Below, piece after piece: positions 1,166 to 15,529 of a stretch of 16,019 nt of DNA. This DNA is from an uncultured Myxococcales bacterium (GTDB lineage Bacteria > Myxococcota_A > Bradymonadia > UBA7976 > UBA1532), in assembly GCA_937896275.1 (NCBI GenBank), contig CALBMW010000727.1, forward strand, positions 1-16,019, given 5' to 3'. Position 1 is the stretch's first letter; each line of letters opens with the position of its first letter. A model generated the notes under the pieces. The model saw only the letters and a program-made list of their open reading frames with translations, had not been told where the DNA came from and searched no databases. A program made the position numbers and the translations under genes.

Positions 1166-1470
1166 GACGGCTCCAATGCCCGCTCGAGGCGGGCCCGCAG
1201 CGTCTCCGGATCCAGGGTCTCGAAGGCCACCCGCTTGCTGCGCCCGGTCGCGCCCTGAACGATCAGCACCGACCGCGCCGGCACATCCATCAGCTTGGCG
1301 AAGAAGCGCGTCAGGGCCGCGTTGGCTGCCCCGTCGACTGGCGGCGCCCGCAGGGCGACCTTGAGCGCACCGTCGTGCAAACCGACGAGCCCCTCGCGCC
1401 GAGCCCGAGGTTGCACGCGGACGGCCACGACCGCCCCCGCGCCCCGCGCCTCGACGCGCGGCGCGCTCAC
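1162..1470 (-). CDS. yggU: DUF167 / YggU family protein
   Basis: This is the C-terminal part of the 1162..2277 track ORF. The sequence VRVQPRARREGLVGLHDGALKVALRAPPVDGAANAALTRFFAKLMDVPARSVLIVQGATGRSKRV matches the DUF167 signature (V.PrA....v......L.v...ApP.dG.AN.al..f.a). The GTG start at 1470 overlaps the divIVA TGA (GTGA). Confidence 0.85.
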   Translation of the reverse strand: MSAPRVEARGAGAVVAVRVQPRARREGLVGLHDGALKVALRAPPVDGAANAALTRFFAKLMDVPARSVLIVQGATGRSKRVAFETLDPETLRARLERALEPS

Positions 1471-1952
1471 CGGCGCGCCTCCCGCGCCGGCTCCGCCTCG
1501 CGATCCATCTCTTCTTGGGTCTCGATGAGCCGCCGGTGACCCTCGATGATGCCGCGGACCTCGGCCATCAGGCGCGCCTTCTGCCGCCGCAGCCCCTGCG
1601 TCTCGTCGGCCAGCCGCACGACCTGCTCTTGAGCGTGCGACAGGATCTTGTCGGCCCGCAGCTCGGCCTCGGCCCGAATCAGCTCGGCCTCCTTGCGCGC
1701 GCTCTCCTTGATCTCGTCGGTCATCCGCCCAGCCTGCACCAGCGCCTCGCGCAGCTGCGCCTCGTTGCCGCGGAACTCCGCGAGCTGCTGCTCTCGCTTG
1801 CGAATCTCCTCTTTGAAGTGGTTGTTCTCGCGGATCATCTCCTCCATCTCGCGCGATACGAGATCGAGGAAGGTGTGCACCTGCTCCGGATCGCACCCGC
1901 GGAACACCCGCTGGAACTGCTGCTGATCGACCTCGAGCGGCGTGATCTTCAC
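1467..1952 (-). CDS. divIVA: DivIVA-domain cell-division/polarity protein
   Basis: 161 aa. The N-terminus MKITPLEVDQQQFQRVFRGCDPEQVHTFLDLV is the canonical DivIVA lipid-binding N-domain (TPLdi..k.F....RGYd..eVd.FLd.v). The remainder is heptad-like, E/R/K/Q-rich coiled coil. The GTG start at 1952 overlaps the proC TGA (GTGA). Confidence 0.9.
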   Translation of the reverse strand: MKITPLEVDQQQFQRVFRGCDPEQVHTFLDLVSREMEEMIRENNHFKEEIRKREQQLAEFRGNEAQLREALVQAGRMTDEIKESARKEAELIRAEAELRADKILSHAQEQVVRLADETQGLRRQKARLMAEVRGIIEGHRRLIETQEEMDREAEPAREARR

Positions 1953-2740
1953 GTCGTCTCCAACTCCTCGGACCGCTTGGTCGCGGCGCCCACCGCCTCG
2001 ATGAGCGCCGCGCGCAGTGCGTGGCGCTCGAGCACCGCGAGCCCCGCGATCGTGGTGCCCCCGGGCGAGGCCACCGCGTCCTTGAGGGCGGCCGGGTGCT
2101 CCCCCGTCTCGAAGGCCATCGCGCCCGCCCCACGCACCGCGGCCGCAGCGAGGCGCAGCGCGGTCGCTCGTGGCATCCCTGCCGCCACCGCGCCATCGGC
2201 CATCGCCTCGATGGCCACGAACAAGAAGGCCGGGCCGCTGCCGACCAGCGCCGTGCCGGCATGAAAGAGCCGCTCATCGGCGACCCTCTCCGCGATGCCG
2301 ACGGCCCCGAAGAGGGTGCAGACGCGCTCCACGTCCTCGACGCGATCGGCCGGCCCCGACAGCACGAGGGTCGCCCCCTGCCCCACGCGGCAGGCGATGT
2401 TCGGCATGGTCCGCACCACGCGGGCGGGTGACGCGGCCAGCTCGAGCCGGCGCCGCGAGACGCCGGCCGCCACCGAGATGACCAGCTGTTCGGGTGTGAA
2501 GGTCAGATCAGCGAGCGCCGCGTCCACTTGCGTCGGCTTGACCGCCAGGACGATCAGCTCCGCCGAGGCCGCCACCTGTTCCCGCGTCGAAGCGGTCACG
2601 CCCAGCCGGGCGGCGGTCTGCGCGCCGCTCTGACGGGCAGCGACCAGCACCTCGTCAGGGCGCATCAGGCCGCGGTCCAGCCACCCCGCGAGCAGCGCCT
2701 GCCCCAGCTTGCCGCAGCCCAGGAAACCGATCCGCCGCAT
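1949..2740 (-). CDS. proC: Pyrroline-5-carboxylate reductase
   Basis: 263 aa from the ATG at 2740 (cat at 2738-2740). It has the Rossmann motif IGFLGCGKLGQAL and the ProC C-terminal signature ALKDAVASPGGTTIAGL. GGGAG lies 6 nt upstream of the ATG. The longer 490-aa track ORF is an out-of-frame upstream extension. Confidence 0.93.
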   Translation of the reverse strand: MRRIGFLGCGKLGQALLAGWLDRGLMRPDEVLVAARQSGAQTAARLGVTASTREQVAASAELIVLAVKPTQVDAALADLTFTPEQLVISVAAGVSRRRLELAASPARVVRTMPNIACRVGQGATLVLSGPADRVEDVERVCTLFGAVGIAERVADERLFHAGTALVGSGPAFLFVAIEAMADGAVAAGMPRATALRLAAAAVRGAGAMAFETGEHPAALKDAVASPGGTTIAGLAVLERHALRAALIEAVGAATKRSEELETT

Positions 2741-2764
2741 CCCACGCTCCCATCCAGGCGCCCC

Positions 2765-2793
2765 AGCGTAGGAGCTTGATTCCCGCGAAGCAA
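2765..2793 (-). promoter_or_regulatory. Candidate sigma70-like promoter for proC-divIVA-yggU
   Basis: On the minus strand: TTGCTT (2793..2788), a 17-nt spacer, then TACGCT (2770..2765), about 25 nt upstream of the proC ATG. The match to consensus is weak and it lies in a 175-nt intergenic gap. Confidence 0.25.
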
Positions 2794-2915
2794 CCGAGCG
2801 CGGGGCGGCCGCGGACGGCGCGCCAGGGCGCGAAGCCGCGGCGGCGCGGGGAAACACCGGCCGGCAGAACGGTGCTGCGCGACGCGGCGCGATCTTTCTC
2901 TTGGGGCGGAGGCGC

Positions 2916-4175
2916 TCAGCGCTGCCCGAACAGGGCCGTGCCCACGCGCACGTGCGTCGCGCCTTCCGCGATCGCTGCCGGAAAGTCGTCGGACATGCCG
3001 ATCGACAGGGACGCCAAGGGTCGATCGGGGCGGGCGTGGGCGTCGCGCAGCATCCGGAGCGCCGCGAAACGTCGCCGCGTGGCGGCCAGGCCATCGGGGG
3101 GAGGCACCGCCATGAGGCCGTCGACCTGCAGGCCATCGATGTCAGCGAGCGCCGCCAGCAGCGCCCCGAGCGCAGCCGGCTCGACCCCGCTCTTGGTGTC
3201 CTCGGCGCCGATATTGACCTGCACGAGCGCGCGGACGGGCAGGCCCGACGCCCGGCGCGCCAACTCGGCCCCGAGCGCCACGTTGTCCAGGCCGTGCACC
3301 AGGTGCACCCGCCCCGCGACGTGCTTCGCCTTGTTGCGTTGAAGGTGGCCGATGAAGTGCCAGCGCGGCCGTTCACCGAGCTGCGCCGCCTTGTCGCGCC
3401 ACTCCTGGACGTAGTTCTCACCCAGATCGACCAGCCCGGCGTCGAGGGCCGCGGTCAGCCGCTCCACGGGCTGCGCCTTGCTCGCGCCCACCAGCGTCAC
3501 CGACGCGGCCGGCCGCCCCGCCGCCTGCGCGGCCGCCGCAATCCGCCCACGGATCACCGCCAGGCGGGCGGCGACGGGGCTACCGAAGGGCGGCAGGGCG
3601 CCCACCTCGACCAGGGCCTCGAGCACCTCGGCCAGCGGCAGCCCCACGACCCCGTCATAGCTGCCCTCCACGGCGTCCACCAACGCGCCCCCGCCGCCCT
3701 GCACCCCATAGGCGCCGGCCTTGTCGAGCGGATCGCCGGTGGCCACGTAGGCACAGAGGGCCTCCTCCGAGAGCGGCGCGAAGGTCACCTCGCTCACCGT
3801 CTCGCCCAGCCGGGGCGCCGCCGCGCCGCTCGCCAGCGCGAAGGCCGTCACCACCTGGTGACGTCGGCCCGCCAGGCGGCGCAGCATCGCGCGCGCCTCG
3901 TCCGGGTCCGCCGGCTTGCCGAGGATGTCGCCCTCCACGGTGACCACGGTGTCGCTCGCCAGCACCCAGCGTGGATCCTCGGCACGCCGGGCCCCGACCC
4001 CGGCCGCGGCTTTCTCGACCGCCATGCGCCGGGCGAAGTCCACCGGCGCCTCGCCCGCCGCAGGCACCTCGGCGACATCGACCGGGCGCACGACCGAGCG
4101 CACCCCGGCCGCCTCGAGCATCACGCGCCGTCGCGGCGACCCCGACGCCAACACCAAGTCAAACGGCACGCTCAT
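2916..4175 (-). CDS. maf-yggS: Fusion protein: N-terminal Maf (nucleoside-triphosphate pyrophosphatase / septum-formation-associated) plus C-terminal YggS/YlmE (PLP-homeostasis protein)
   Basis: A single uninterrupted frame. The Maf part has LVLASGSPRRR and DPLDKAGAYGVQGGGGALV..EGSYDGVVGLPL. It is followed directly by the YggS part, with the PLP-lysine context LVGASKAQP, plus DLGENYVQE, WHFIGHLQRNKAK, SIGMSDDF and VRVGTALFG. The preferred start is the ATG at 4175, with GAGGAGG 7 nt upstream. The track start at 4235 adds 20 non-homologous residues. Confidence 0.85.
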   Translation of the reverse strand: MSVPFDLVLASGSPRRRVMLEAAGVRSVVRPVDVAEVPAAGEAPVDFARRMAVEKAAAGVGARRAEDPRWVLASDTVVTVEGDILGKPADPDEARAMLRRLAGRRHQVVTAFALASGAAAPRLGETVSEVTFAPLSEEALCAYVATGDPLDKAGAYGVQGGGGALVDAVEGSYDGVVGLPLAEVLEALVEVGALPPFGSPVAARLAVIRGRIAAAAQAAGRPAASVTLVGASKAQPVERLTAALDAGLVDLGENYVQEWRDKAAQLGERPRWHFIGHLQRNKAKHVAGRVHLVHGLDNVALGAELARRASGLPVRALVQVNIGAEDTKSGVEPAALGALLAALADIDGLQVDGLMAVPPPDGLAATRRRFAALRMLRDAHARPDRPLASLSIGMSDDFPAAIAEGATHVRVGTALFGQR

Positions 4176-5008: not shown

Positions 5009-5150
5009 GAGGCGTCCGACCCGCCCGACCGTGGCCGGGCTCCTAGACGCGGCGCCGTGCGTGCCGACCCACCATCGCGCGCCCGCTGCGCAACCCACCC
5101 CGCGACGAGGTCGCCTCGGCGACGCAGCTGCACGCCCGCGTGCACGTTCT

Positions 5151-5177
5151 CCAGCACTCGCCGGCCGCGAGTGCTGG
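5151..5177 (+). promoter_or_regulatory. CIRCE-like HrcA operator (inverted repeat)
   Basis: CCAGCACTC-N9-GAGTGCTGG is a perfect 9-bp inverted repeat with a 9-nt spacer. It matches the CIRCE consensus TTAGCACTC-N9-GAGTGCTAA at 7 of 9 positions per arm. It is located 233 nt upstream of the groES ATG. Confidence 0.7.
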
Positions 5178-5266
5178 CACTCTCCCCGCGAGACTGCCAG
5201 ACGCACCTGCATTTCCTTTGATATTTCAGCAACTTCTCGACGCAGAAAAAAAACGTCCCCGGGTGG

Positions 5267-5294
5267 TTGACAGCCCGGCGCGAGCGCTTACATT
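5267..5294 (+). promoter_or_regulatory. Candidate sigma70-type groESL promoter
   Basis: A perfect TTGACA at 5267-5272, a 16-nt spacer, then TACATT at 5289-5294. It is preceded by the most AT-rich stretch of the window (5205-5256, including GAAAAAAAAC), in the UP-element position. This gives a leader of about 110 nt to groES. Confidence 0.45.
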
Positions 5295-5409
5295 CACTGC
5301 CGCTCGCGGTTGGCCGCGAAACGGATTCATCCATGCCGCCTGGTGGCGGCGCCCCGGAATCGTGGGCGGCACCTCAGAACGGCGACACCCTTTGCAGCGG
5401 GAGCACACC

Positions 5410-5709: not shown

Positions 5710-7356
<1,647 letters not shown>

Positions 7357-7373
7357 TCGGCGCGCCCTGAAGC

Positions 7374-7437
7374 GATGACCCCTCTGCGGGGTCGTCGCCG
7401 CGAAAGCCTCGGCTCCGGCCGGGGCTTTCGTCGTTTC
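7374..7437 (+). terminator. Tandem hairpins / likely intrinsic terminator of groESL
   Basis: Hairpin 1 is 7374-7396: a 9-bp stem (GATGACCCC / GGGGTCGTC, one G-U pair) with loop TCTGC. Hairpin 2 is 7401-7430: a 13-bp stem (CGAAAGCCTCGGC / GCCGGGGCTTTCG, one G-U pair) with loop TCCG. Hairpin 2 is followed by TCGTTTC. The structure begins 18 nt after the groEL stop. Confidence 0.6.
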
Positions 7438-7501
7438 AGGACCCTCCCCACAAGGTCGCTCGGCTCGATCCGACCCGTGTGGGAATGATCTCGGGCGACC
7501 G

Positions 7502-8173
7502 TCAATCGACGAAGAGCGCGCCGAGCGGATCGGCCTGACCGTGCAGCGGGCTGTCGACCAATCCACCGAGGAGCAGGTGCAGCCACAGCAGAAGATCGGC
7601 GTCGCTGGCGGGCCGGCAGCGGACAGCCGCGCCCGTGCCACGGCGCGCGACGACATGACCGTCGAGCTGCACCTGGGCGCCGTCCTCGAGCGCGACCCGG
7701 ACCGCGACCGAGGCGCCCTCCAGGAGCCCCTCCGGCATCGGATCGACCCACAGCCCGTAGAGCGAGACGTCGAGCGAGCGGCTCTGCGCGCCGTCGATGG
7801 TGACCGCCAGATCGGCCCGGACGCGCGGATGCCGACGCAGGTTCGACGGGTGGCTGAGCACCTCGCGGACGTGGTGCGCCATCACCTCAGGTTTGTCGGG
7901 CAGCAGCCGTAACACAGCGGGCGGCAAGGACAATTCGGCCGGCGCGACCGCCAGCACGGGCACCAGCGCGGTGTCGTGCGCCGCCAGCGCGGCCTGGCCC
8001 GGAGGCTTGCGCGCGTCGAGCACCAGCAGCCCCCGACCGTCGTAGACCGCGACCGCGACCGCCTGCAGATCCGCCGCCGGGGCACGGCGAACGGCCACCC
8101 CCGCCTGGAGCAACTCGCCCTCGAGCGTCGCCAGCTCGTCGGTCCTACCCAGAATCCAGACCGTCGGTGTCAT
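7502..8173 (-). CDS. Receiver-like domain / PilZ domain protein (putative c-di-GMP receptor)
   Basis: 223 aa. The C-terminal half carries both PilZ signatures: RRHPR (RxxxR, aa 113-117) and DVSLYG (DxSxxG, aa 135-140). The N-terminal ~100 aa are CheY-like in pattern: WILGRTDE, LLVLDARKP with candidate Asp53, and LPDKPE with the conserved Lys-Pro. The beta4 Thr/Ser is replaced (VLAVA). The ATG at 8173 overlaps the ATPase TGA (ATGA), and GGGGAG lies 6 nt upstream. Confidence 0.8.
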   Translation of the reverse strand: MTPTVWILGRTDELATLEGELLQAGVAVRRAPAADLQAVAVAVYDGRGLLVLDARKPPGQAALAAHDTALVPVLAVAPAELSLPPAVLRLLPDKPEVMAHHVREVLSHPSNLRRHPRVRADLAVTIDGAQSRSLDVSLYGLWVDPMPEGLLEGASVAVRVALEDGAQVQLDGHVVARRGTGAAVRCRPASDADLLLWLHLLLGGLVDSPLHGQADPLGALFVD

Positions 8174-11049
8174 CGGGCGCTCCCCGTGCTCAGACCCGCC
8201 ACCCCGGCCCGCCGGGTCGCGCTCACAGCCTGCCGATGCAGGGCCTCGACGCGCGCGGGCACGCGCTCCGGATCGAGAGCCACGCCCTCGGCGTCCAGCA
8301 GATCCTCGTAGGGGTGGTCGACCCGATGCACCAAGCGCTCGCTCGCGAAGACGCTCTGCCGGATCAACGCCTGCGCGGGCGCCAGATCCATGGTCTGCAC
8401 GTGCAAGGTGCCGTCCGGCGTCACCACGGGCTCGTCGAGGCCGACCGAGCGATGCGCGGGCGGATCGGGCAGCGGATCACCGGCGCGGCGCCCATGCGCG
8501 ACCCCGTCGTCCAGCGGCGCCCACGACGCCGGCGCCTCCTCGCGCAGGCTCGGCGCGGCCCCCAAGCGGGGGCGTCCGGCCGACGACGCGAGCTCCGCGT
8601 CGGCCCACGGATCGTAGTCGTCTTCGCCTTCGTCCTCGTCTTGTGGGTCGGCCCGATCCGCGTCCCGTCCGCCCACCGCCAAGGCCTGCCCAGCGATCGA
8701 CGCGACCTGCCCACCCGGAGGTGCAGCCGAGCGCGCGGGCGTCGGCGCGGGCGCGGGCGCGGGCCCAGGAGCGGGCGTGGGCGTGCTCGCGGGCTCCTCG
8801 AAGAAGATGTCGTCGAAGGCCTGCTCGACGTCCTCATCGACGGTTCGGGTCGCCGGCGGCGGAGGCGTGTGGGGCGTGGCCGTTGCGCGGGCGCCGGCCA
8901 CCGGTGGGGTCTCGAACCCCAACGAGGAGGGGTCGAAGTCGGGCAGCGAGTCCTCCGGCGTGAAGCCGGGCGCCGCGGCGCGGCGGACGGGGGCGTCGTC
9001 GGGCCAGTCCGGCGCCGGGTCGCTGTCGCCGCCCGTGAGCGCCGCCAGGGCTTGGCGACCGGGGTGCGGCCGGGCCGAGGTTGCTGGCCAGGCTGGGATG
9101 CCGTCGGGCAGCGCCGCCGCCTCGAGCGCGGCCACGATGTCAGCCACCGCGCGGGGATCTACCAAAGGCTGCGGCTGCGCAGCGCTCACGGGCGGGGACG
9201 GCGTCGGCTCGACCGGCGAGCGACCGGCGTCGGCGGGCAGGTCCCACGCCATCTCGTCGGCGTCCACGGTCGGCACCTCGGCCGTCGGCCGCTCCGCCCG
9301 ATCGAAGGCCTCGTCGAGCGCCGCACCAAAACCGCCCGCGCCAGGCACCTGCTCCCACTCACCCCAGGCCGCCGCGAGGTCGGGCGCCGCCGAATCGACC
9401 GGCGGCGCCGCCTCCTCGGGAAGGTCCAGGCTGATCGCGGCCTCTGGCTCCGCGGCGTCCCAAGCGCCTGCGAGCGGATCGTCACCGAGGGCCGCGCCGA
9501 CGCGGTCGACCGCCGCAATGGGGGCGCTCTCCGCCGGGACCACGGCGGTGACGGGCACGACGGCGACCTCGATCGGGGTCTCCTCCGGATCGCCGACCCA
9601 AGCCTGCAGCGCGTCGGCGGGGGCGGCCTCGGTGTGAGCCGGCCCCGCCTGCCCTTCGCGCCAAGCGAGCTCCGCCGCGTCCATCCGGTCGGCGGTCTCC
9701 GCGCCGGCCACGGCGGCGCGGTCGATCGAGCCGGTCACGACCGAGAGTGGCCCCAACTCGTCCATCTCTGGGAGCGGCAGCTCGCCCAGATCGTCCATCT
9801 CTGCCGCCGGAAGATCCCCCAGCGAGTCCCCCGGAGTGAGTAGGGGCTCTCCCTCGTCGAGGCCACCGTCGGACGCACCCGGGGACGAGGCGTCGTCGCA
9901 CTCCTCGCTCGCCTCGGGCGCGGGTGGCTCCACCCACGCGCCCTCCGGCGTGCCCGGCGGCTCGCCCTGATCCACGACATCGTTGGGCGGACCCTCGGCC
10001 GGGACGTCGCCGCCTCGATCGCTCGCGTCGGCAACCGGCAGGTGTGGAACATGCTCGCTCGAATCGGCGTCGGCCGGCGGCTGATCACCGTCGGCGACGA
10101 GGCTGGGCGGCAGATCGCGACGCAGGAGCAGGTCCGGGCGCGCCGCGCCGCTGAACTCGAGCAGCCGATCCACCATCGCGGCCGTCGCGTCGCCCAGCGC
10201 GCCATAGGGCACTGTGTGCGCCACCGACTTCATGCGCCGGATCGCCGTCCGCACCTCCAACTCGATCGGCAGGGTGCCGGCGTGGGGGAGCGCGACGTCG
10301 AGGTAGCGGTGACACACGAGCCGCAGCGCGCCGAGGACTCGCCTCTCCTCGCGCTCGTTCGCCTGATTGATCACGACCTGCGCGCGGAAGTCGGCGACCA
10401 GCGCGGCGACCGCGTCAGCGATCGCGGGATCGGCGGCCCGCACCGCCTCGATCAGCGGCCCGACGGCGTCGAGCCGCTCCGTCGCGTCCCGCGGCTGCAT
10501 CACGCGCGCGAGGGCCGCCCGCACCACGGCCTCGTGGCCACAGCCCAGCTCGATGCGCCGGAAGAGCGCCGACTTCAGGAAGGCATAGGCGTTCTGGATC
10601 GAGGTCGGCTCCGGCCCCGTCACCACCAGCCCCAGACCGGCCAGGTTGAAGAAGTCGAGCGTCGTGTAGTGCGTGCCGGCGCCGAGGTCGATCAACACCA
10701 CGTCGACGTCCAGGCCGAGCACCGCGTCGATCAGTCGCTCCTTCTCGGTCGGTCGTGGATGAGCCGCCCGAAGGATGCCGGCGGCGCCGCTGATCAGTCG
10801 AAGACCGGGCACCTCGGTGTCGAGGCAGACCTCATCGAGCGTGTGGGCCCGCCCCAAAACGAAGTCGCTCAGCGTCCGGGCGGGCTGCAGCAGGCCCAGC
10901 AGGGTGTGCAGGTTCGCGGCGCCCAGATCGGCGTCCAACGCCACGACGCGCAGGCCCCGCCTGGCGAGCTCAGCGCCGACGATCGCGCACACCAGCGACT
11001 TGCCGACGCCGCCCTTGCCCCCACCGAAGGCCCAGACCCGCTCCGCCAT
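8170..11049 (-). CDS. ParA/MinD(FlhG)-like P-loop ATPase fused to a very long acidic disordered region and a small C-terminal domain
   Basis: 959 aa. Within aa 1-300 there is a deviant Walker A (GGGKGGVGKS) with its signature Lys, switch I (VVALDADLGAANLHTLLGL, FlhG/MinD-like) and Walker B (DVVLIDLGAG). Roughly aa 305-865 are Pro/Ala/Asp/Glu-rich low complexity. Roughly aa 866-959 have ordinary composition (VVTPDGTLHVQTMDLAPAQALIRQSVFASERLVHRVDHPYEDLLD). The ATG at 11049 shares 1 nt with the upstream TGA (TGATG), and GGGGGA lies 8-9 nt upstream. Confidence 0.85.
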   Translation of the reverse strand: MAERVWAFGGGKGGVGKSLVCAIVGAELARRGLRVVALDADLGAANLHTLLGLLQPARTLSDFVLGRAHTLDEVCLDTEVPGLRLISGAAGILRAAHPRPTEKERLIDAVLGLDVDVVLIDLGAGTHYTTLDFFNLAGLGLVVTGPEPTSIQNAYAFLKSALFRRIELGCGHEAVVRAALARVMQPRDATERLDAVGPLIEAVRAADPAIADAVAALVADFRAQVVINQANEREERRVLGALRLVCHRYLDVALPHAGTLPIELEVRTAIRRMKSVAHTVPYGALGDATAAMVDRLLEFSGAARPDLLLRRDLPPSLVADGDQPPADADSSEHVPHLPVADASDRGGDVPAEGPPNDVVDQGEPPGTPEGAWVEPPAPEASEECDDASSPGASDGGLDEGEPLLTPGDSLGDLPAAEMDDLGELPLPEMDELGPLSVVTGSIDRAAVAGAETADRMDAAELAWREGQAGPAHTEAAPADALQAWVGDPEETPIEVAVVPVTAVVPAESAPIAAVDRVGAALGDDPLAGAWDAAEPEAAISLDLPEEAAPPVDSAAPDLAAAWGEWEQVPGAGGFGAALDEAFDRAERPTAEVPTVDADEMAWDLPADAGRSPVEPTPSPPVSAAQPQPLVDPRAVADIVAALEAAALPDGIPAWPATSARPHPGRQALAALTGGDSDPAPDWPDDAPVRRAAAPGFTPEDSLPDFDPSSLGFETPPVAGARATATPHTPPPPATRTVDEDVEQAFDDIFFEEPASTPTPAPGPAPAPAPTPARSAAPPGGQVASIAGQALAVGGRDADRADPQDEDEGEDDYDPWADAELASSAGRPRLGAAPSLREEAPASWAPLDDGVAHGRRAGDPLPDPPAHRSVGLDEPVVTPDGTLHVQTMDLAPAQALIRQSVFASERLVHRVDHPYEDLLDAEGVALDPERVPARVEALHRQAVSATRRAGVAGLSTGSAR
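9742..9825 (-). repeat. In-frame 33-nt (11-aa) tandem repeat inside the ATPase disordered region
   Basis: TCGTCCATCTCTG recurs on the plus strand at 9758-9770 and 9791-9803. The protein reads LGDLPAAEMDD / LGELPLPEMDE / LGPLS, about 2.5 units. Confidence 0.7.
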
Positions 11050-12473
11050 CAGCGCGTTCCCCCGTCGCGTGCGTCGTGCGCCGCTGAGCCCCCATCCGGG
11101 GGGGGCGCGCCAGCGTCTCCTGCCTGCAGTCGGCGCAACAGGAGGCGGCGCTTGAACCCATTGAGTTCACCGCGGGCGTCCTTGGCTCTCAGGCTGTCGT
11201 AGAGCTTCTCCATGAGCACGCCGGTGGCGTACTCCACCCCCACCTGGTGGTCGACGAGCCATCGGATCAGCGTCGGATCGTCGGTGGCGGCCAGGGCCCG
11301 GATGATGGCGAACTGGTAGTTGCGGTAGGGGACGAGCAGCTTCTTGCGCCCCCCCTCCTGCACCGGGACCGTGCGCTCGGGGCAGTTCTCGAGCGGATCG
11401 GTGGAGACTTCGAACGCAGCCCGCAGGGGGCCCGATGCGTCGAACTCCGCCAGCTTTTCGAGCGCCTGGATGGCCGCGCAGCGCATCGCGAGCGACGGAT
11501 CCTCGAGCCGCGCGGTCAGCAGGTCGAGCAGCGCGCGGTTACGCAGCTCGCCCAGGGCCCACAGCGCCGCGAGCTGGGTGTCCTCGTCTTGGTTGCTCGT
11601 CAAGATGCGCCGCAGCAGATCGACCGCCGGCACCTTCAGCATGCCCAGCATCAAGGCGAGCGCCCGCGGCTCGCGCTGCGCGACGGGGCTCTCGGCGACC
11701 GTGCGCGCCGCCGTTCTGGCCTGCTCACCCCCCACCTGGCCCAGCGCGATGAGCGCCGTGAAGGTGAGCGCGGGCTGCTCGATGGCGAGTCGCCCCAGGC
11801 GCTCGGCGGCCGCCTGCACGCCCAGCGATCCCACCACGAACGCCGCGCGCGCCGCGACGCCCTCGTCGGGATCGTCGAGGGCTCGGAGCACCACCTGCTC
11901 GACCGCCGGGGTGACCGCGAAGTCGAGGCGCGTCGCCAACATGCTCATGCCCTCGCGACGCACCGCCGGATCGGCGCTCCGCATGTGCACCACCGCGACA
12001 CCTGGGTGTGAGTAGCGCCCCAGGAAGTTGTGGGACAGGGCATTGGACGAGAGGATGAAGGCCGCCGAGAAGGCCAGGAAGTACAGGCCAAAGCGAACGG
12101 ACGAGTCCCCGCCGCGCAGGGCCTCACGGTCCTCCGCGTCGGTGGTCTCGTGCCCCATCCCGTCGATGCGGGCGTCGAGCTCGGCCATCTCGTCGCGCAG
12201 GAAGTGCTCGGTGAACCCGCGGTAGAAGAGCGCCTCGCCCAAGCTGATGACCGACACCAGCCCAGCGACGACGCCCACCGCCATCCACACCGCGACCAGT
12301 ACGAAGCTGAGCCCCGGCGAGTCAGCGCTGTGGTCGATGTAGCGATGGATCAGGTACGCCGCGCCGTAGAAGCCGGCGACGGCGATGAGCAGCATCCCGT
12401 AGCGACGAGCCGCCGTGCCGAAGAGCGCAGCGCGCAGACCGTGCACCGGCGGGCGGTGTGGACGTCCACTCAC
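11049..12473 (-). CDS. Polytopic membrane protein with HEAT (PBS-lyase-type) repeat domain
   Basis: 474 aa. There are three predicted TM helices: MLLIAVAGFYGAAYLIHRYI, LSFVLVAVWMAVGVVAGLVSVISLG and VRFGLYFLAFSAAFILSSNAL. After them come repeated HEAT-like units: SADPAVRREGMSMLATRL, LDDPDEGVAARAAFVVGSLG, NQDEDTQLAALWALGELR and LEDPSLAMRCAAIQALEKL. The start is uncertain. GTG at 12473 abuts the upstream TGA (TGAGTG); alternatives are GTG at 12446 or ATG at 12395, and none has a strong SD. Confidence 0.72.
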   Translation of the reverse strand: MSGRPHRPPVHGLRAALFGTAARRYGMLLIAVAGFYGAAYLIHRYIDHSADSPGLSFVLVAVWMAVGVVAGLVSVISLGEALFYRGFTEHFLRDEMAELDARIDGMGHETTDAEDREALRGGDSSVRFGLYFLAFSAAFILSSNALSHNFLGRYSHPGVAVVHMRSADPAVRREGMSMLATRLDFAVTPAVEQVVLRALDDPDEGVAARAAFVVGSLGVQAAAERLGRLAIEQPALTFTALIALGQVGGEQARTAARTVAESPVAQREPRALALMLGMLKVPAVDLLRRILTSNQDEDTQLAALWALGELRNRALLDLLTARLEDPSLAMRCAAIQALEKLAEFDASGPLRAAFEVSTDPLENCPERTVPVQEGGRKKLLVPYRNYQFAIIRALAATDDPTLIRWLVDHQVGVEYATGVLMEKLYDSLRAKDARGELNGFKRRLLLRRLQAGDAGAPPPDGGSAAHDARDGGTR

Positions 12474-13310
12474 TCAGTTGCCGATCTCAGGCTCCTGGGG
12501 GAAGTAGAAGCCGAAGCCGACCGTCACCGCGAAGTTGTTGCTGATATTGCTGTCGGTGCTCGTCGTCGTGGCGCCCTGTCCATCGCTCTCGACGACGGCG
12601 TTCAGGGAAGAAGAGTAGATGTAGTCGCGGAACTCGAGGTTGACCGCCATGCCGTCGGTCACGAAGGTGCGCAGGCCCACCCCGACGCTGCCCGTCGGTG
12701 TAGCCCCGTCGACGTCCGTCGAGCCGCTGACCAACGTGGCGCCGACCCCGGCGAGCACGTGCAGATCGTAGTTGAGGACCGAACGCCCAAAGAGCGCGAA
12801 CTTGCCGACGAGGGGCGTGTAGATCACCTCGAGCGTGCCCAGCAGGCCCACGTGGGAGAACGCGCCCGCGTCGCTCTTCTCGGGCCGCTCGTCCTCGATG
12901 CGGTCCGCGAGGCCCGAGTTGAAGGGCACCCCCCCCAGCACCGTGGCGCCGATGGCCCAGGCATCCGTGAGGTGATAGGCCAGCTGTGCCCCCAACAGCA
13001 GGTTGCGCTGGAAGGCGTCGTTGAGCGTGAACCCGAAGGTCGGCGTGACCTCGAAGCGACCGCCCCGCAGCATCAGCCGCTTGCGGATCGCCTCGCCCTC
13101 TTCGAGACGGTCGAGCGCCGACCGACGGGGGCCCTGAATGCTGGCCGCCCCGGCTTCGCCGATCGGCATGATCCCACCGAAGACGCCCGCGAGGGCGACG
13201 GCGAGGACCGCGGCCCCCACAGATCCCCCCACCCCGAGCGTTCCGGGCCGCCCCAGCGGGGCGACATGCCCTACGGCATCGTGCTGCTGCGTGGTCAAAG
13301 GCCCCCTCAC
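12474..13310 (-). CDS. Outer-membrane beta-barrel protein (paralogue 2 of tandem pair)
   Basis: These are the last 278 codons of the 12474..14129 track ORF. A hydrophobic signal-like segment (GAAVLAVALAGVFGG) is followed by alternating-hydrophobic beta-strand sequence ending NNFAVTVGFGFYF, which resembles an OMP beta-signal. It is colinear with the upstream gene product: RFEVTPTFGFTLNDA vs RVEVAPFLGTNINDA, YTPLVGKFALFG vs YVPIYGKFALFN, and LEFRDYIY vs IELRDNIY. The start is either GTG at 13310 (GTGA overlap) or TTG at 13298 (GAGG upstream). Confidence 0.7.
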   Translation of the reverse strand: MRGPLTTQQHDAVGHVAPLGRPGTLGVGGSVGAAVLAVALAGVFGGIMPIGEAGAASIQGPRRSALDRLEEGEAIRKRLMLRGGRFEVTPTFGFTLNDAFQRNLLLGAQLAYHLTDAWAIGATVLGGVPFNSGLADRIEDERPEKSDAGAFSHVGLLGTLEVIYTPLVGKFALFGRSVLNYDLHVLAGVGATLVSGSTDVDGATPTGSVGVGLRTFVTDGMAVNLEFRDYIYSSSLNAVVESDGQGATTTSTDSNISNNFAVTVGFGFYFPQEPEIGN

Positions 13311-14086
13311 TTCAGCGTCCGGTACTCGAAGTCGGGCGGCAGAAAGAAGCTGACGCCGGCGGTGAAGATCAAGTTGTTCACCAGCTGGCTGTTGCCCGGA
13401 TAGTCCTCGTTGTAGATGTTGTCCCGCAGCTCGATGTCGAGCGTGAACCAGTGGTTCATGAAGTACCGCTGACCCGCGCCGATCGACAGCGTCGGGTGAC
13501 CGGCGAGCTCGGTCTTCGTCCAGCCGGCGCCCAGCAGCGCGTAGGTGTCCCACGGGATGATCCAGGTGTTGAACAGCGCGAACTTGCCGTAGATGGGCAC
13601 ATACTGGAAGTCGAGCAGCGCCCACCACTGCACCTTCGACACCTGCGGGAACAGCTCGTAATCCTCGATCACGCTGTTGAACAGGTCGCTCTCCGAGCCC
13701 AGGCTGTAGCCGCCGTTTACGCCGACCGCCATGACCTCGGTCAAGTGGTAGTTCAGGTTGCCGCCGGCGACGAACATGCTCGCGAGAGCGTCGTTGATGT
13801 TGGTGCCCAGGAAGGGCGCCACCTCGACGCGGTTGCGGCGCAGGAAGGGGCGCCGTTGAATGACCCGGATGAGGTCGATCTCCTCCTGGCGGGAGCGCTC
13901 GACCTCCTTCGCCGCGGCCTGCGTGTCGACCACGTCGAAGGTCAGGTCCCCCCCCGCGTCGTCCCCACCGGTCGCGTCGTCCCCGACCTCGACCGGGTCG
14001 AACGTCATGTCCTGCGCCAGCGCAGCCGGCGCGGCGGTGAGAGCCGCCAGGAACACGACCGATGCCGCCCTCGTGCGCAGGTTCAT
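13307..14086 (-). CDS. Outer-membrane beta-barrel protein (paralogue 1 of tandem pair)
   Basis: 259 aa from the ATG at 14086, with GGAGG 2-7 nt upstream. The signal peptide is a clean Sec type, MNLRTRAASVVFLAALTAAPAALA/QD. An acidic Gly/Asp-rich linker is followed by beta-strand-pattern sequence rich in aromatic girdle residues, ending NLIFTAGVSFF plus an 11-aa tail. It resembles the myxobacterial outer-membrane beta-barrel domain family (TIGR04565-like, from memory). Confidence 0.8.
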   Translation of the reverse strand: MNLRTRAASVVFLAALTAAPAALAQDMTFDPVEVGDDATGGDDAGGDLTFDVVDTQAAAKEVERSRQEEIDLIRVIQRRPFLRRNRVEVAPFLGTNINDALASMFVAGGNLNYHLTEVMAVGVNGGYSLGSESDLFNSVIEDYELFPQVSKVQWWALLDFQYVPIYGKFALFNTWIIPWDTYALLGAGWTKTELAGHPTLSIGAGQRYFMNHWFTLDIELRDNIYNEDYPGNSQLVNNLIFTAGVSFFLPPDFEYRTLK

Positions 14087-14119
14087 GGCCTCCGTTCCAC
14101 CCAGGTTGGATTCCCGCCG

Positions 14120-14148
14120 TTCGTAGCACGGCGGTCTGGCGCCTTCAA
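14120..14148 (-). promoter_or_regulatory. Candidate promoter for the barrel-HEAT-ATPase-PilZ operon
   Basis: On the minus strand: TTGAAG (14148..14143), a 17-nt spacer, then TACGAA (14125..14120), about 35 nt upstream of the ATG at 14086. It is immediately preceded by a GC-rich palindromic stretch plus a T5 run (14150-14176 on the minus strand: GGCGGCCGCCGGGGCGGTGGTTTTTG) that could be a weak ftsY terminator. Confidence 0.3.
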
Positions 14149-14185
14149 CAAAAACCACCGCCCCGGCGGCCGCCTTCGAACCGGC

Positions 14186-15529
14186 TCAGGCCCCCGCGAA
14201 GAGCGCCTCCGCAAAGGCCTCGGCGTCGAAGGCCCGTAGATCCTCGACCTTCTCGCCGATGCCGATGTAGCGCACCGGCAGGCGCATCTCGTCGCAGATT
14301 CCGATGACCACCCCACCCTTGGCCGTTCCGTCCAGCTTGGTGAGCACCAGCCCGGTCACGTCGACCACCTGGGTGAACTCCTTGGCCTGACTGATGGCGT
14401 TCTGTCCATTGGTCGAGTCGAGCACCAGCCAGACCTCGTGCGGCGCGCCCGGCATCGCCTTGCCGATCACGCGGTGCACCTTGCCCAGCTCGTCCATCAA
14501 CTCCTTCTTGGCCTGGAGCCGCCCCGCGGTGTCGGCGATGACCACGTCAAAGCCCTCGTCGACGGCGCGCTTGACCGCTTCGAAGATCACGCTCGACGGA
14601 TCCTGCCGCTCCCCTCCGCGCACGACGGGCACCCCGGCGCGGCTGGCCCAGACCTCGAGCTGCTCCACCGCCGCGGCGCGAAAGGTGTCGCCGGCGGCCA
14701 GCAGCACTCTCTTGCCCTGGTCCGCATAAGTGCGAGCCAGCTTGCCGATGGTGGTCGTCTTGCCGGCCCCGTTCACCCCGACGACCATGATGACCAGCGG
14801 TTTGGCGCGCGCGAGATCGAAGCCCCGATCCTCCACCTTCAGCATGTCGGTGATCTGGCGCTTCATGGCGCCCCACACGCGCTGCGGGTCCTGCAACTCC
14901 TTCTTGCCGAGCGCCTCGTGCACCCGCTCGACCAGCTTCTGGCTGGTGCGCACGCCGATGTCGGCGCTGAAGAGCGCCTCCTCGAGTTCCCCGAGCAGCC
15001 CATCGTCGATGGTCTTGGCGCCACCAAAGATCAGCCCCAGCTTCTTGACGAAGCCGTCGTGCGTGCGCGCCAGACCCTCGCGCAGCGTCCGACCCGCGGC
15101 CTCGGGAGCGGCGGGACGCGGCGGCTCGGGGGGCGGCGTGGCGGGCTTCGCCTTGGCGGCGGGCGCCTTGGCCGGGGCCTTCGCCAACTGCGGCGGCTTC
15201 TTCACCTCGGCCGGCGCGGACGGCTCCGCGACCTCGGGCTTCTTGGGCTCCGGCTTCTTGGCGGGCGCGAGCGGGGCACGGAAGGCAGACCGAGCCCGAG
15301 CCCGCACCTCCCGCTCGGTGCGCGGGTCCGTCAGCGTCGGCTGGGGCACCTCACGGCGCGGCGCGAGGTCCGGCGACCTCTTGCGAAGCGCGCGCACCAC
15401 CACGAAGACCATGAGCGCCACGGCCACGCCATAGATCAGGTACTCGACCCACAGCGGCGCAGCCTCCGCCGAGACCTCGGTCTGGGCCAGCGCCACGTTC
15501 GTGAGCAGCGCCTCGATATCGATCCCCAT
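14186..15529 (-). CDS. ftsY: Signal-recognition-particle receptor FtsY (membrane-anchored form)
   Basis: 447 aa. The NG domain has the G1 P-loop VVGVNGAGKTTTIGKLA, plus DTAGR, TKLDGTAKGG and GIGEKVEDL. There is an N-terminal TM helix (LWVEYLIYGVAVALMVFVVV) and a basic Pro/Ala/Lys-rich linker. The ATG at 15529 lies 10 nt downstream of the smc stop. Confidence 0.95.
   Translation of the reverse strand: MGIDIEALLTNVALAQTEVSAEAAPLWVEYLIYGVAVALMVFVVVRALRKRSPDLAPRREVPQPTLTDPRTEREVRARARSAFRAPLAPAKKPEPKKPEVAEPSAPAEVKKPPQLAKAPAKAPAAKAKPATPPPEPPRPAAPEAAGRTLREGLARTHDGFVKKLGLIFGGAKTIDDGLLGELEEALFSADIGVRTSQKLVERVHEALGKKELQDPQRVWGAMKRQITDMLKVEDRGFDLARAKPLVIMVVGVNGAGKTTTIGKLARTYADQGKRVLLAAGDTFRAAAVEQLEVWASRAGVPVVRGGERQDPSSVIFEAVKRAVDEGFDVVIADTAGRLQAKKELMDELGKVHRVIGKAMPGAPHEVWLVLDSTNGQNAISQAKEFTQVVDVTGLVLTKLDGTAKGGVVIGICDEMRLPVRYIGIGEKVEDLRAFDAEAFAEALFAGA

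What the first reader, a model, noticed from the sequence alone, without database searches (positions are those of the whole stretch)
7502..14148. Five translationally coupled genes (2 OM barrels, HEAT membrane protein, giant ParA/MinD-like ATPase, REC-like/PilZ) form a candidate undescribed envelope-spanning, c-di-GMP-linked module
Seen in sequence:
- Five same-strand genes have essentially no intergenic space: GTGA overlap at 13307-13310 (or a 9-nt gap if the TTG at 13298 is used), TGA abutting GTG at 12473/12474, a 1-nt TGATG overlap at 11049, and an ATGA overlap at 8170-8173.
- The cluster has its own possible promoter after ftsY, and it ends convergently against the groEL terminator.

The predicted locations span every compartment: two Sec-exported beta-barrels (outer membrane), a 3-TM HEAT-repeat protein (inner membrane plus a solenoid domain), a cytoplasmic deviant-Walker-A ATPase with a huge disordered scaffold-like tail, and a PilZ protein with intact RxxxR/DxSxxG motifs.

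Established knowledge:
- ParA/MinD ATPases position cargo or complexes.
- PilZ domains are c-di-GMP receivers.
- HEAT solenoids are protein-docking platforms.
- Paired small barrels followed by an alpha-solenoid protein is also the layout of the Myxococcus GltA/GltB/GltC and NfsA/NfsB/NfsC outer-membrane modules.

Inference: this is a dedicated machine that couples second-messenger state and ATPase-driven positioning to an outer-membrane complex. Possible roles are motility, adhesion or division-site related. I do not recognise this five-gene combination as a named system.
Basis: partly seen in the sequence, partly recalled or inferred. Interest (0 to 1): 0.85.

Follow-up and report, generated by a model that had tools for sequence, protein, structure and literature searches.

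The report
Mosaic operon with polarity-linked ATPase–PilZ pair
The five tightly packed genes are real, but they look like a mosaic rather than one machine, and its conserved core is an undescribed pair: a MinD/FlhG-type ATPase fused to a RomY-like domain (RomY regulates the MglA/MglB polarity switch), followed by a c-di-GMP-type PilZ protein.

Summary
All four gene junctions and all five domain calls hold: two TIGR04565 outer-membrane barrels, a 3-TM HEAT protein, a 959-aa MinD/FleN-like ATPase with a 550-aa acidic linker, and a receiver-like PilZ protein with intact RxxxR and DxSxxG motifs.

The "one five-part envelope machine" reading is only partly supported.
- The block occurs in about 11 lineages of one uncultured Myxococcota clade, always after ftsY.
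- HEAT is missing in 3 of those lineages and PilZ in 3.
- More distant lineages keep ftsY-barrel-barrel with no ATPase, HEAT or PilZ.
- Nitrospiraceae and two unplaced metagenome lineages keep the ATPase-PilZ pair with no barrels.

[quoted passage not shown] Sister ATPases in Desulfobacteraceae lie between PilZ genes and mglB-mglA.

Best reading: a c-di-GMP-responsive, ATP-driven spatial regulator of the MglA/MglB polarity GTPase. In this clade it is co-transcribed with an ftsY-linked barrel pair and a membrane HEAT protein. I found no description of this pair in the literature. Interest is moderate to high.

The parts
13307..14086 (-). G1: exported outer-membrane beta-barrel protein (259 aa). 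It has a signal peptide, a ~70-aa acidic N-terminal extension and a ~160-aa barrel.
   Evidence: TIGR04565 at 121 bits (cut-off 60) and OMP_b-brl at 25 bits. About 80 orthologue clusters at 56% identity or more. Always the first gene after ftsY.
12474..13310 (-). G2: paralogous outer-membrane beta-barrel protein (278 aa from the GTG at 13310; 274 aa from the TTG at 13298).
   Evidence: TIGR04565 at 103 bits. About 30% identical to G1. GTGA overlap with the G1 stop.
11049..12473 (-). G3: membrane HEAT-repeat protein (474 aa). Layout: K/R-rich N-terminus, three hydrophobic segments (about 25-43, 58-76 and 126-145), an acidic 50-aa loop carrying FLRDEMAELDARIDG, then a HEAT domain with two invariant Cys (C332, C364).
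   Evidence: HEAT_2 at 61 bits. Hydropathy and charge pattern conserved in 8 orthologues. Alignment A4 and the Cys counts. Absent from L004/15, L005/20 and L018.
10120..11049 (-). G4 N-domain (aa 1-310): MinD/FleN/FlhG-class deviant Walker A ATPase.
   Evidence: CbiA at 39.7 bits and ParA at 37.5 bits, both above cut-off. Nearest solved structures are FleN 5j1j (E 6e-29), then FlhG 4rz2, then MinD. K12, G13-G16, S18, D39, D41 and D121 are invariant in 27 homologues.
8467..10119 (-). G4 linker (aa 311-861): low-complexity acidic Ala/Pro-rich region with net charge -86 and 11 scattered Trp. Probably disordered; no disorder predictor was run. Its length varies widely between orthologues (whole proteins run 480-2168 aa).
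   Evidence: Composition. No conservation outside a DPW motif near its end. Protein lengths.
8173..8466 (-). G4 C-domain (aa 862-959): homologue of the RomY N-terminal domain, which in Myxococcus xanthus binds MglA-GTP and MglB and acts as the MglB co-GAP.
   Evidence: NF053858 RomY_Nterm matches 16 of 19 orthologue C-domains, best E 2e-10; the window's own copy scores 20.5 bits, E 4.9e-4. The A2 profile retrieves ~200-aa proteins; all six tested pass the RomY cut-off at 60-82 bits. hhalign against stand-alone RomY proteins gives 98.5%, E 1.7e-15.
7850..8173 (-). G5 N-domain (aa 1-108): receiver-like, probably a pseudo-receiver. The Asp at the end of beta-3 (D53) is invariant, but the conserved T/S and K of true receivers are not kept.
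   Evidence: AlphaFold2 model with mean pLDDT 78 and (beta-alpha)5 topology. The Foldseek hit list includes the KaiA pseudo-receiver and the PhoP, ArcA and CheY4 receivers; assigning these hits to the N-terminal half is my inference from their size and domain type. No Pfam Response_reg hit. Alignment A3.
7502..7849 (-). G5 PilZ domain plus a C-terminal helix (aa 109-223). RRHPR and DVSLYG motifs are intact.
   Evidence: PF07238 at 23.2 bits (cut-off 22.5). Both motifs are invariant in 8 homologues. Foldseek matches to the PilZ domains of Alg44, MotI, MapZ and BcsA.
14153..14171 (-). Terminator-like hairpin plus T-run between the ftsY stop (14186) and the G1 start (14086).
   Evidence: sequence.
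14186..15529 (-). ftsY: context gene that the barrel pair follows in every lineage examined.
   Evidence: TIGR00064 at 341.5 bits (cut-off 260.7); FlhF scores only 86 bits against a cut-off of 174. Synteny.

Best explanation
The five genes are most likely one transcription unit in an uncultured, largely marine Myxococcota clade. Evolutionarily and functionally the block is a mosaic of three parts.

(1) Barrel pair. A paralogous pair of small TIGR04565 outer-membrane barrels belongs with ftsY. It is found there in wider lineages that lack the rest of the block.

(2) HEAT protein. A clade-specific 3-TM HEAT protein is dispensable in a third of the species. It probably tethers or docks the ATPase at the inner membrane.

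(3) ATPase-PilZ core. The conserved core is a regulatory pair.
- One partner is a FleN/FlhG-like MinD-class ATPase. After a long acidic linker, its C-terminus is a RomY-type domain.
- The other partner is translationally coupled to it: a pseudo-receiver-PilZ protein with intact c-di-GMP-binding motifs.

Proposed mechanism (inferred):
- The ATPase cycles between an ATP-bound dimer and a monomer at a surface. In this clade that surface is the membrane, reached through G3.
- The PilZ partner reads c-di-GMP and tunes that cycle or the ATPase's location.
- The tethered RomY-like domain then concentrates MglB co-GAP activity, or MglA/MglB binding, at that site.
- Second-messenger level is thereby coupled to the front-rear polarity GTPase, and so to surface motility or pole identity.

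Shown here: the domain identities, the RomY homology, the gene couplings and the co-occurrence patterns.

Inferred: nucleotide and c-di-GMP binding, all protein-protein contacts, and the Mgl output.
For: RomY homology.
- NF053858 hits 16 of 19 C-domains.
- The reciprocal profile search finds proteins that pass the RomY cut-off.
- hhalign gives 98.5%.
- The fused domains in L052 (69.3 bits) and L095 (53.2 bits) pass the curated cut-off of 50.
- RomY's N-domain binds MglA-GTP and MglB and stimulates the GAP (PMC9481161).

The pair is conserved outside the clade.
- ATPase-RomY followed directly by a ~235-aa receiver-like PilZ occurs in L052 (Nitrospiraceae), L095/96 and L099.
- A PilZ-ATPase fusion, P0030, exists.

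Sister ATPases.
- In 6 Desulfobacteraceae loci they lie between PilZ genes and mglB-mglA.
- 17 of the 72 other species loci have a PilZ-motif gene directly adjacent; nine of these were confirmed with Pfam.

Tree. A neighbour-joining tree places the Myxococcota cluster clade next to the short RomY fusions.

Precedent. PilZ proteins PlpA and PixA act on MglA polarity in M. xanthus (PMC8316039).

Mosaic nature..
Against: - No mglA or mglB gene lies within the ±10 kb held for any locus of the Myxococcota clade. Whether these genomes encode them could not be checked.
- The window's own C-domain scores only 20.5 bits against the RomY model (cut-off 50).
- The domain is C-terminal here but N-terminal in RomY.
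- PilZ is missing in 3 lineages of the clade, and the RomY-like domain is missing in L019.
- P0108/L097 has a DUF5666 protein in place of PilZ.
- The tight coupling of barrels, HEAT and ATPase, kept in L008-10 despite a changed downstream context, leaves room for a physical link that this reading treats as secondary.
Confidence: 0.5

Rival explanations
1. One reading: all five proteins form one dedicated envelope-spanning complex. It would consist of the outer-membrane barrel pair, a periplasmic HEAT bridge anchored in the inner membrane, and a cytoplasmic ATPase and PilZ. The complex would be a new motility, adhesion or secretion device analogous to GltA/GltB/GltC.
For: - Four zero-gap junctions.
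- The order barrels-HEAT-ATPase is kept in 8 of 11 lineages, including L008-10 with a different downstream context.
- The 3-TM, N-in topology would put the HEAT domain in the periplasm. That domain has exactly two Cys, both invariant, which is compatible with a disulfide.
- A conserved acidic loop would then be cytoplasmic, facing the ATPase.
- GltB (275 aa) and GltA (256 aa) are likewise adjacent paralogous barrels followed by a helical-repeat protein (PMC4488436).
Against: - The barrel pair follows ftsY without any of the other genes in L093, L094 and L101-104.
- ATPase-PilZ occurs without barrels or HEAT in three other lineages.
- The proposed bridge (HEAT) is lost in 3 species that keep both barrels and the ATPase.
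- The G3 topology is not established; the single-sequence model had pLDDT 56.
- No lipoprotein or other Glt-like genes lie nearby.
Confidence: 0.2
2. The ATPase-PilZ pair is a c-di-GMP-controlled MinD/ParA-type positioning system for some other cargo, such as pili, flagella, a secretion or polysaccharide machine, or the division site. Under this reading the RomY-like domain is only a generic protein-binding module unrelated to MglA/MglB in this lineage.
For: - The nearest solved relatives are FleN/FlhG and MinD.
- L095/96 lies next to flgB-flgC-fliE and a sigma-54 activator.
- The window's region is rich in division and segregation genes: smc, ftsY, divIVA, maf.
- BcsQ-BcsE-BcsA(PilZ) shows that MinD-like ATPases can serve c-di-GMP-controlled secretion systems.
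- The RomY-like domain is fused to varied partners: TonB_C, and REC with DUF4388.
Against: - Fusion to RomY and neighbourhood with mglB-mglA are two independent lines pointing to the same partner system.
- There is no FlhF; the adjacent SRP-type GTPase is a true FtsY.
- There is no minC or minE, no N-terminal FlhG activator extension and no evident C-terminal membrane-targeting helix.
- Scores against the MinD and BcsQ equivalog models are far below cut-off.
Confidence: 0.2
3. The adjacency is inherited synteny with no functional link among most of the genes. On this view an ATPase-PilZ cassette once landed between the ftsY-barrel block and groESL in the clade's ancestor and has simply stayed there.
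For: - The whole region smc-ftsY-...-groESL-lexA-maf-proC-divIVA is collinear across the clade.
- The two sub-blocks occur separately elsewhere.
Against: - Start-stop overlaps at G2/G3, G3/G4 and G4/G5 argue for co-expression.
- The HEAT gene occurs only between the barrels and the ATPase.
- L008-10 keep barrels-HEAT-ATPase although the downstream genes have changed.
Confidence: 0.1

Closest known systems
RomY (MXAN_5749), co-GAP of MglB in the Myxococcus xanthus MglA/MglB/RomR-RomX polarity module
   Same: The ~85-aa globular domain is homologous (hhalign 98.5%, 32% consensus identity). In both proteins it is joined to a long low-complexity region.
   Different: RomY is a 188-aa stand-alone protein with the domain at its N-terminus. 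Here the domain is at the C-terminus of a 959-aa MinD-class ATPase. The window's copy scores below the NCBIfam cut-off. Co-GAP activity is untested.
FleN/FlhG (MinD-type ATPases that control flagellar number and placement; FleN also works with the c-di-GMP-binding regulator FleQ)
   Same: Best solved-structure matches to the ATPase domain are FleN 5j1j (E 6e-29) and FlhG 4rz2. It shares the deviant Walker A motif and, by family precedent, probably ATP-dependent dimerisation. Both have a link to c-di-GMP signalling.
   Different: - There is no FlhF partner; the neighbour is a true FtsY.
- There is no N-terminal activator extension.
- A C-terminal amphipathic helix, if present, is followed by a 650-aa extension.
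- Most loci, including this Myxococcota clade, have no flagellar genes nearby.
MinD / ParA positioning ATPases (including PomZ of M. xanthus)
   Same: The same P-loop class with the signature lysine. Each comes with small partner proteins encoded next to the ATPase.
   Different: The score against the MinD equivalog model is 53 bits against a cut-off of 213. There is no MinC/MinE or PomX/PomY. The partner is a PilZ protein.
BcsQ-BcsR-BcsE with the BcsA PilZ domain (E. coli-type cellulose secretion)
   Same: A MinD-family ATPase works with a c-di-GMP sensor that contains a degenerate receiver-like domain, and with a PilZ domain, in an envelope-spanning, polarly placed system (papers listed).
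   Different: The BcsQ model scores 14 bits against a cut-off of 158. There is no synthase, BcsB or BcsC. Here the PilZ domain is a separate soluble protein.
PlpA and PixA, PilZ proteins that regulate MglA polarity in M. xanthus
   Same: These are PilZ proteins acting on the MglA polarity switch. PixA also combines a PilZ domain with a receiver domain (PMC8316039).
   Different: PixA has the domain order PilZ then REC, with a functional receiver. PlpA is a PilZ domain alone. The paper never mentions a ParA-type ATPase (0 occurrences). No orthology to G5 was detected.
GltB-GltA-GltC / NfsB-NfsA-NfsC outer-membrane modules of gliding and sporulation machines
   Same: Two adjacent paralogous ~260-275-aa signal-peptide barrels with N-terminal extensions, followed by a helical-repeat protein (PMC4488436).
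   Different: - GltC is a soluble periplasmic TPR protein, and a lipoprotein gene (cglC) precedes the barrels.
- Here the repeat protein is a 3-TM HEAT protein.
- The barrels are tied to ftsY, not to glt or agl genes.
- Sequence orthology was not tested.

Membership tests
ParA/MinD superfamily (deviant Walker A P-loop ATPases) | KGGxxGK[ST] deviant Walker A with the signature lysine, plus Walker A' and Walker B aspartates | tested here: met
   GGGKGGVGKS at aa 9-18. K12, D39, D41 and D121 are invariant in 27 homologues. CbiA and ParA score above their Pfam cut-offs.
MinD proper | Passes the TIGR01968 equivalog cut-off; has a C-terminal membrane-targeting helix; has minC/minE partners | tested here: not met
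   53 bits against a cut-off of 212.9. The ATPase domain is followed by a 650-aa extension. No minC or minE in the window.
FlhG/FleN | Paired with the SRP-type GTPase FlhF and flagellar genes; N-terminal activator extension | tested here: not met
   The neighbour is FtsY (341.5 bits; FlhF 86 bits against a cut-off of 174). The P-loop starts at residue 9, so there is no extension. No FtsY/FlhF-like hit in the 72 other ATPase loci.
RomY N-terminal domain family (NF053858) | Score at or above the curated cut-off of 50 bits | tested here: not met
   The window domain scores 20.5 bits, E 4.9e-4. Related fused domains do pass: L052 at 69.3 bits and L095 at 53.2 bits.
RomY N-terminal domain family (NF053858) | Homology of the domain (profile-level, reciprocal) | tested here: met
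   16 of 19 orthologue domains hit the model. The A2 profile finds ~200-aa proteins; all six tested score 60-82 bits. hhalign 98.5%, E 1.7e-15 over 82 columns.
RomY N-terminal domain family (NF053858) | [quoted passage not shown] | not testable with these tools
   No whole-genome access to the MAGs. No mglA or mglB within the ±10 kb held. Needs biochemistry.
PilZ domain (PF07238), c-di-GMP-binding type | Pfam gathering score, RxxxR and [D/N]xSxxG motifs, PilZ beta-barrel fold | tested here: met
   23.2 bits against 22.5. RRHPR and DVSLYG are invariant. Foldseek matches to Alg44, MotI and MapZ at E about 3e-4. Actual c-di-GMP binding was not testable.
Response-regulator receiver domain | Pfam Response_reg match and the full phospho-acceptor pocket (acidic pair, Asp, Thr/Ser, Lys) | tested here: not met
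   No Pfam hit. The fold is receiver-like. Only the beta-3 Asp (D53) is invariant; the Thr/Ser and Lys positions are not conserved. This makes it a pseudo-receiver.
TIGR04565 OMP_myx_plus outer-membrane barrel domain | Score at or above the 60-bit cut-off | tested here: met
   G1 scores 121 bits and G2 scores 103.4 bits.
Glt/Nfs outer-membrane module (GltA/GltB/GltC) | Orthology to GltA/GltB; adjacent lipoprotein (CglC) and soluble periplasmic TPR protein (GltC); co-occurrence with the other glt and agl genes | not tested
   No GltA or GltB sequences were available for comparison. Layout and sizes resemble them. However, no lipoprotein or TPR gene is adjacent, and the barrels track ftsY in other lineages.
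HEAT-repeat proteins (PF13646 HEAT_2) | Pfam gathering score | tested here: met
   61 bits against 27.7, in three stretches. The helical-repeat core is modelled with pLDDT 80-95 for residues 160-310.
BcsQ (TIGR03371) | Equivalog cut-off of 157.85 bits | tested here: not met
   14.3 bits.

The most novel reading that the evidence does not exclude
All five products form one trans-envelope complex. In it, the inner-membrane HEAT protein's periplasmic solenoid (stabilised by a conserved disulfide) docks on the ftsY-linked barrel pair, while its acidic cytoplasmic loop engages the FlhG-like ATPase. A c-di-GMP- and MglA/MglB-controlled ATPase would then govern an outer-membrane device directly. That would be a previously unknown kind of polarity-coupled surface machine in non-model Myxococcota.
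Probability: 0.17. Interest if true: 0.85.

Novelty: new variant of a known kind. Interest (0 to 1): 0.62.

Why it matters
How c-di-GMP feeds into the MglA/MglB front-rear polarity switch is an open question. In Myxococcus, PilZ proteins (PlpA, PixA) affect MglA localisation by unknown routes, and RomY is known only as a small stand-alone co-GAP.

This locus offers a direct, testable wiring: c-di-GMP, then PilZ, then the ATPase cycle, then local MglB co-GAP activity. Three observations support it:
- A MinD/FlhG-class ATPase is physically fused to a RomY-type domain.
- It is translationally coupled to a PilZ protein.
- Sister ATPases sit in PilZ-ATPase-mglB-mglA operons in Desulfobacteraceae.

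The wiring may extend well beyond myxobacteria, to Nitrospirota and Desulfobacterota among others. It would also add a new class of partner to ParA/MinD positioning ATPases.

Separately, the conserved ftsY-barrel-barrel block flags an uncharacterised outer-membrane protein pair of unknown role.

Tried and rejected
- Structure of G3. The single-sequence model was too poor outside the HEAT core (mean pLDDT 56) to judge topology or the proximity of the two Cys.
- PDB sequence search for G5 found nothing useful.
- The homologue search for G5 returned only 8 close relatives because of the word index.
- Searches for G3, G4 or G5 relatives near the distant ftsY-barrel loci found none (tblastn, phmmer and a G3 profile).
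- Defence-system models (PADLOC) gave only generic HEAT and P-loop noise, so a defence role was rejected.
- Rfam gathering scan: no RNA family. No CIRCE operator upstream of groES.
- The sigma-70 promoter scan found none in 7200-14400. Myxobacterial promoters may not fit that model.
- Five literature searches combining PilZ, MinD/FlhG, MglA/MglB, RomY and HEAT terms found no description of this pair or cluster.
- My J-domain regular expression missed the DnaJ-like genes that are visible by eye after the Bdellovibrionota ATPases, so no counts are given for that association.
- FlhF-FlhG reading of the ftsY + ATPase adjacency: rejected, because the GTPase is a bona fide FtsY and smc-ftsY is ordinary synteny.
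The hits were therefore re-checked with NCBIfam: an MglB model hit at 52 bits, and the small_GTP domain.

Full report
**What is in the window.** The window is a 70% G+C metagenome contig, identical to ENA scaffold ALNE18-1...scaffold_1113. Five genes lie on the minus strand:
- G1, 13307-14086
- G2, 12474-13310
- G3, 11049-12473
- G4, 8170-11049
- G5, 7502-8173

They sit between a true ftsY (TIGR00064, 341.5 bits) and a convergent groEL-groES.

- GTGA at 13310-13307
- TGA|GTG at 12474/12473
- TGATG at 11051-11047
- ATGA at 8173-8170

The 99-nt gap after ftsY holds a terminator-like hairpin (14171-14153) and a GGAGG ribosome-binding site. It has no sigma-70-like promoter.

**Domain calls.**
- G1 and G2 are paralogous TIGR04565 outer-membrane barrels (121 and 103 bits, cut-off 60; about 30% identical to each other).
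- G3 has HEAT_2 repeats (61 bits) behind three hydrophobic segments. Those segments are conserved in eight orthologues, together with a K/R-rich N-terminus and an acidic 50-aa loop.
- G4 has a deviant Walker A ATPase domain (aa 1-310). Its nearest solved relatives are FleN, then FlhG, then MinD.
- After the ATPase domain comes a 551-aa Ala/Pro/Asp/Glu-rich linker with net charge -86, then a conserved ~95-aa C-terminal domain.
- G5 is a PilZ protein just above the Pfam threshold. Its RRHPR and DVSLYG motifs are invariant.
- An AlphaFold2 model of G5 (pLDDT 78) shows a (beta-alpha)5 N-domain, which matches receivers and the KaiA pseudo-receiver. It also shows a PilZ barrel matching Alg44, MotI and MapZ.
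- Only the beta-3 Asp of the phospho-acceptor pocket is kept, so the N-domain is probably a pseudo-receiver.

**The new lead: the ATPase ends in a RomY-like domain.**
- Scanning 19 orthologue C-termini against NCBIfam gave RomY_Nterm (NF053858) for 16 of them, best E 2e-10. The window's own copy gave E 4.9e-4 at 20.5 bits, below the 50-bit cut-off.
- A profile of these C-domains was searched against 1.84 billion representative proteins. It first found long MinD-like ATPases with the domain at their C-terminus.
- It then found many ~200-aa proteins with the domain at residues 4-84. All six that I tested pass the RomY cut-off at 60-82 bits.
- Profile-profile comparison with those stand-alone proteins gives 98.5% probability and E 1.7e-15 over 82 columns.
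- RomY's N-terminal domain is the part that binds MglA-GTP and MglB and stimulates MglB GAP activity in the Myxococcus polarity switch (PMC9481161).

**Is the five-gene block one unit?** A scan of one genome per species, together with contig look-ups, found ftsY-barrel-barrel-[HEAT]-ATPase-[PilZ] in about 11 lineages. All are uncultured Myxococcota, labelled variously Nannocystaceae, Myxococcales or Bradymonadia. Within the clade:

| Feature | Present | Absent | Contig ends before it |
|---|---|---|---|
| HEAT gene | 8 lineages | L004/15, L005/20, L018 | none |
| PilZ gene | 6 lineages | L017, L019, L008-10 | L007, L018 |
| RomY-like domain | 8 lineages | L019 | L007, L018 |

Outside the clade the block falls apart in both directions.
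- Barrel pairs 33-35% identical to G1 sit directly after ftsY in L093, L094 and L101-104. None of the other three genes is nearby.
- Short (404-462 aa) MinD-like ATPases with a C-terminal RomY domain are followed at once by ~235-aa receiver-like PilZ proteins in a Nitrospiraceae MAG (L052, 1-nt overlap). The same holds in L095/96 (14-nt overlap, next to flgB-flgC-fliE) and in L099. None has barrels or HEAT.
- One such ATPase, in L097, has a DUF5666 protein downstream instead.

**A second, independent link to Mgl and PilZ.**
- In six Desulfobacteraceae loci, an ATPase 35-36% identical to the G4 N-domain and lacking the RomY domain is preceded by a TPR/cNMP-binding/PilZ protein.
- That ATPase is followed within 0.3-1.5 kb by mglB and mglA homologues. 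Five of the six loci (L022, L024, L050, L051, L059) also carry an antisense PilZ gene in between.
- Altogether, 17 of the 72 non-cluster species loci have a PilZ-motif gene directly adjacent to the ATPase. Nine of these were confirmed with Pfam.
- A PilZ-ATPase fusion also exists (P0030).
- A rough neighbour-joining tree, with no support values, places the Myxococcota cluster clade beside the short RomY fusions. The PilZ/Mgl-linked group forms a separate branch. PilZ-free homologues, including all the Bdellovibrionota ones, make up most of the remainder.
- Two of the Bdellovibrionota ATPase genes that I inspected (L035, L062) are followed by a J-domain gene.

**Interpretation.** The best-supported reading is a mosaic.
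- The conserved functional core is the ATPase-RomY/PilZ pair.
- Fusion to RomY and neighbourhood with mglBA both tie this pair to the MglA/MglB polarity GTPase.
- The partner's intact PilZ motifs tie it to c-di-GMP.
- The proposed mechanism is an ATP-dependent dimer cycle at a surface, tuned by PilZ and c-di-GMP, that positions a tethered MglB co-GAP domain. This is inferred, not shown.
- G3 is a plausible membrane tether specific to this clade.
- The barrel pair belongs primarily with ftsY.

The single-machine model is not excluded.
- The overlaps run from G2 to G5.
- L008-10 keep barrels-HEAT-ATPase in a changed downstream context.
- The HEAT domain's two invariant cysteines, together with an N-in 3-TM topology, would fit a periplasmic bridge.

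**Comparison with known systems.**
- The ATPase is a ParA/MinD-superfamily member, but it fails the MinD, FlhG and BcsQ membership tests.
- Its C-domain is a RomY homologue in a new position and a new fusion.
- G5 is a PilZ protein with a pseudo-receiver.
- PlpA and PixA are functional precedents, not detected relatives.
- The GltB-GltA-GltC resemblance in sizes, paralogy and layout could not be tested by sequence. The ftsY linkage weakens it.
- BcsQ/BcsE/BcsA-PilZ is the nearest working analogy for a MinD-like ATPase combined with a c-di-GMP sensor.
- No paper in the library describes the pair or the cluster.

**Verdict.** The finding is best described as a new variant of known kinds: a MinD-class positioning ATPase, a PilZ receptor and an Mgl polarity regulator. 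Its real interest lies in the ATPase-RomY/PilZ module rather than in the five-gene "machine".

Noticed in passing
L093 7639-10834; L094 7413-10826; L101 4361-7901: An ftsY gene followed by two paralogous TIGR04565-type barrels is a conserved block in lineages that lack the ATPase, HEAT and PilZ genes. In L094 and L101 it is followed, convergently, by a soluble ~245-aa HEAT-like protein and a ~490-aa two-TM sensor-like protein.
   Followed up: partly
L050 6735-11786; L079 4-3938 (also L022, L024, L051, L059): Desulfobacteraceae operon: a TPR/cNMP-binding/PilZ protein, then a MinD/FlhG-like ATPase, then (in all but L079) an antisense PilZ gene, then MglB, MglA and a 213-aa coiled-coil protein.
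   Followed up: partly
P0092, P0134, P0077: The RomY-type domain also occurs at the N-terminus of proteins ending in a TonB_C domain. It also occurs in front of two receiver domains plus DUF4388 (a PATAN-type domain, by my recollection). This suggests a portable adaptor domain; the TonB_C ending recalls GltG/GltJ of the gliding machine, again from memory only.
   Followed up: partly
window 11049-12473 (G3 aa 332 and 364): The HEAT domain contains exactly two cysteines, and both are invariant in all eight orthologues. This is compatible with a periplasmic disulfide.
   Followed up: partly
window about 12165-12209 (G3 aa 89-103): The acidic loop motif FLRDEMAELDARIDG is conserved in 6 of 8 orthologues (EIDAR in L017). 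It resembles the FliM/FliY N-terminal EIDAL peptide that activates FlhG; that comparison is from memory and was not tested.
   Followed up: no
window about 8530-8560 (G4 linker, DDYDPWADAEL); L019 7920-9464: A DPW motif just upstream of the RomY-like domain is conserved across orthologues. The L019 ATPase ends exactly at ...IDPWAD and lacks the RomY-like domain.
   Followed up: no
L008 4921-5475 (also L009, L010): In this lineage the gene after the ATPase is not PilZ. It is a 184-aa protein with a signal-peptide-like N-terminus and a C-terminal ...GIRMRF, separated from the ATPase by a 218-nt gap. It has no Pfam hit.
   Followed up: partly
L035 7941-9645; L062 7974-9577; P0039-P0048: Bdellovibrionota homologues of the ATPase are followed by a J-domain protein. 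Fused DnaJ+HTH_25+ATPase proteins also exist, which points to a different partner set for that branch of the family.
   Followed up: no
L013 7953-12049: In this MAG the ATPase N-domain and the RomY-like domain lie in different reading frames. This is probably a frameshift or an assembly error within the repetitive linker.
   Followed up: no
window 1162-4175 (minus strand): A fused Maf + Ala_racemase_N (YggS-like) gene is followed by proC, divIVA and a PF1765-like gene. This is the usual yggS-proC-divIVA neighbourhood, here with a Maf fusion.
   Followed up: no
window 5009-5409: No CIRCE operator (up to 3 mismatches) lies upstream of groES. No Rfam family is found anywhere in the window.
   Followed up: yes
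window 12395-12473: The public gene call starts G3 at the ATG at 12395 (448 aa). The 26 upstream codons are conserved at the protein level in orthologues, which favours the GTG at 12473 abutting the G2 stop.
   Followed up: partly
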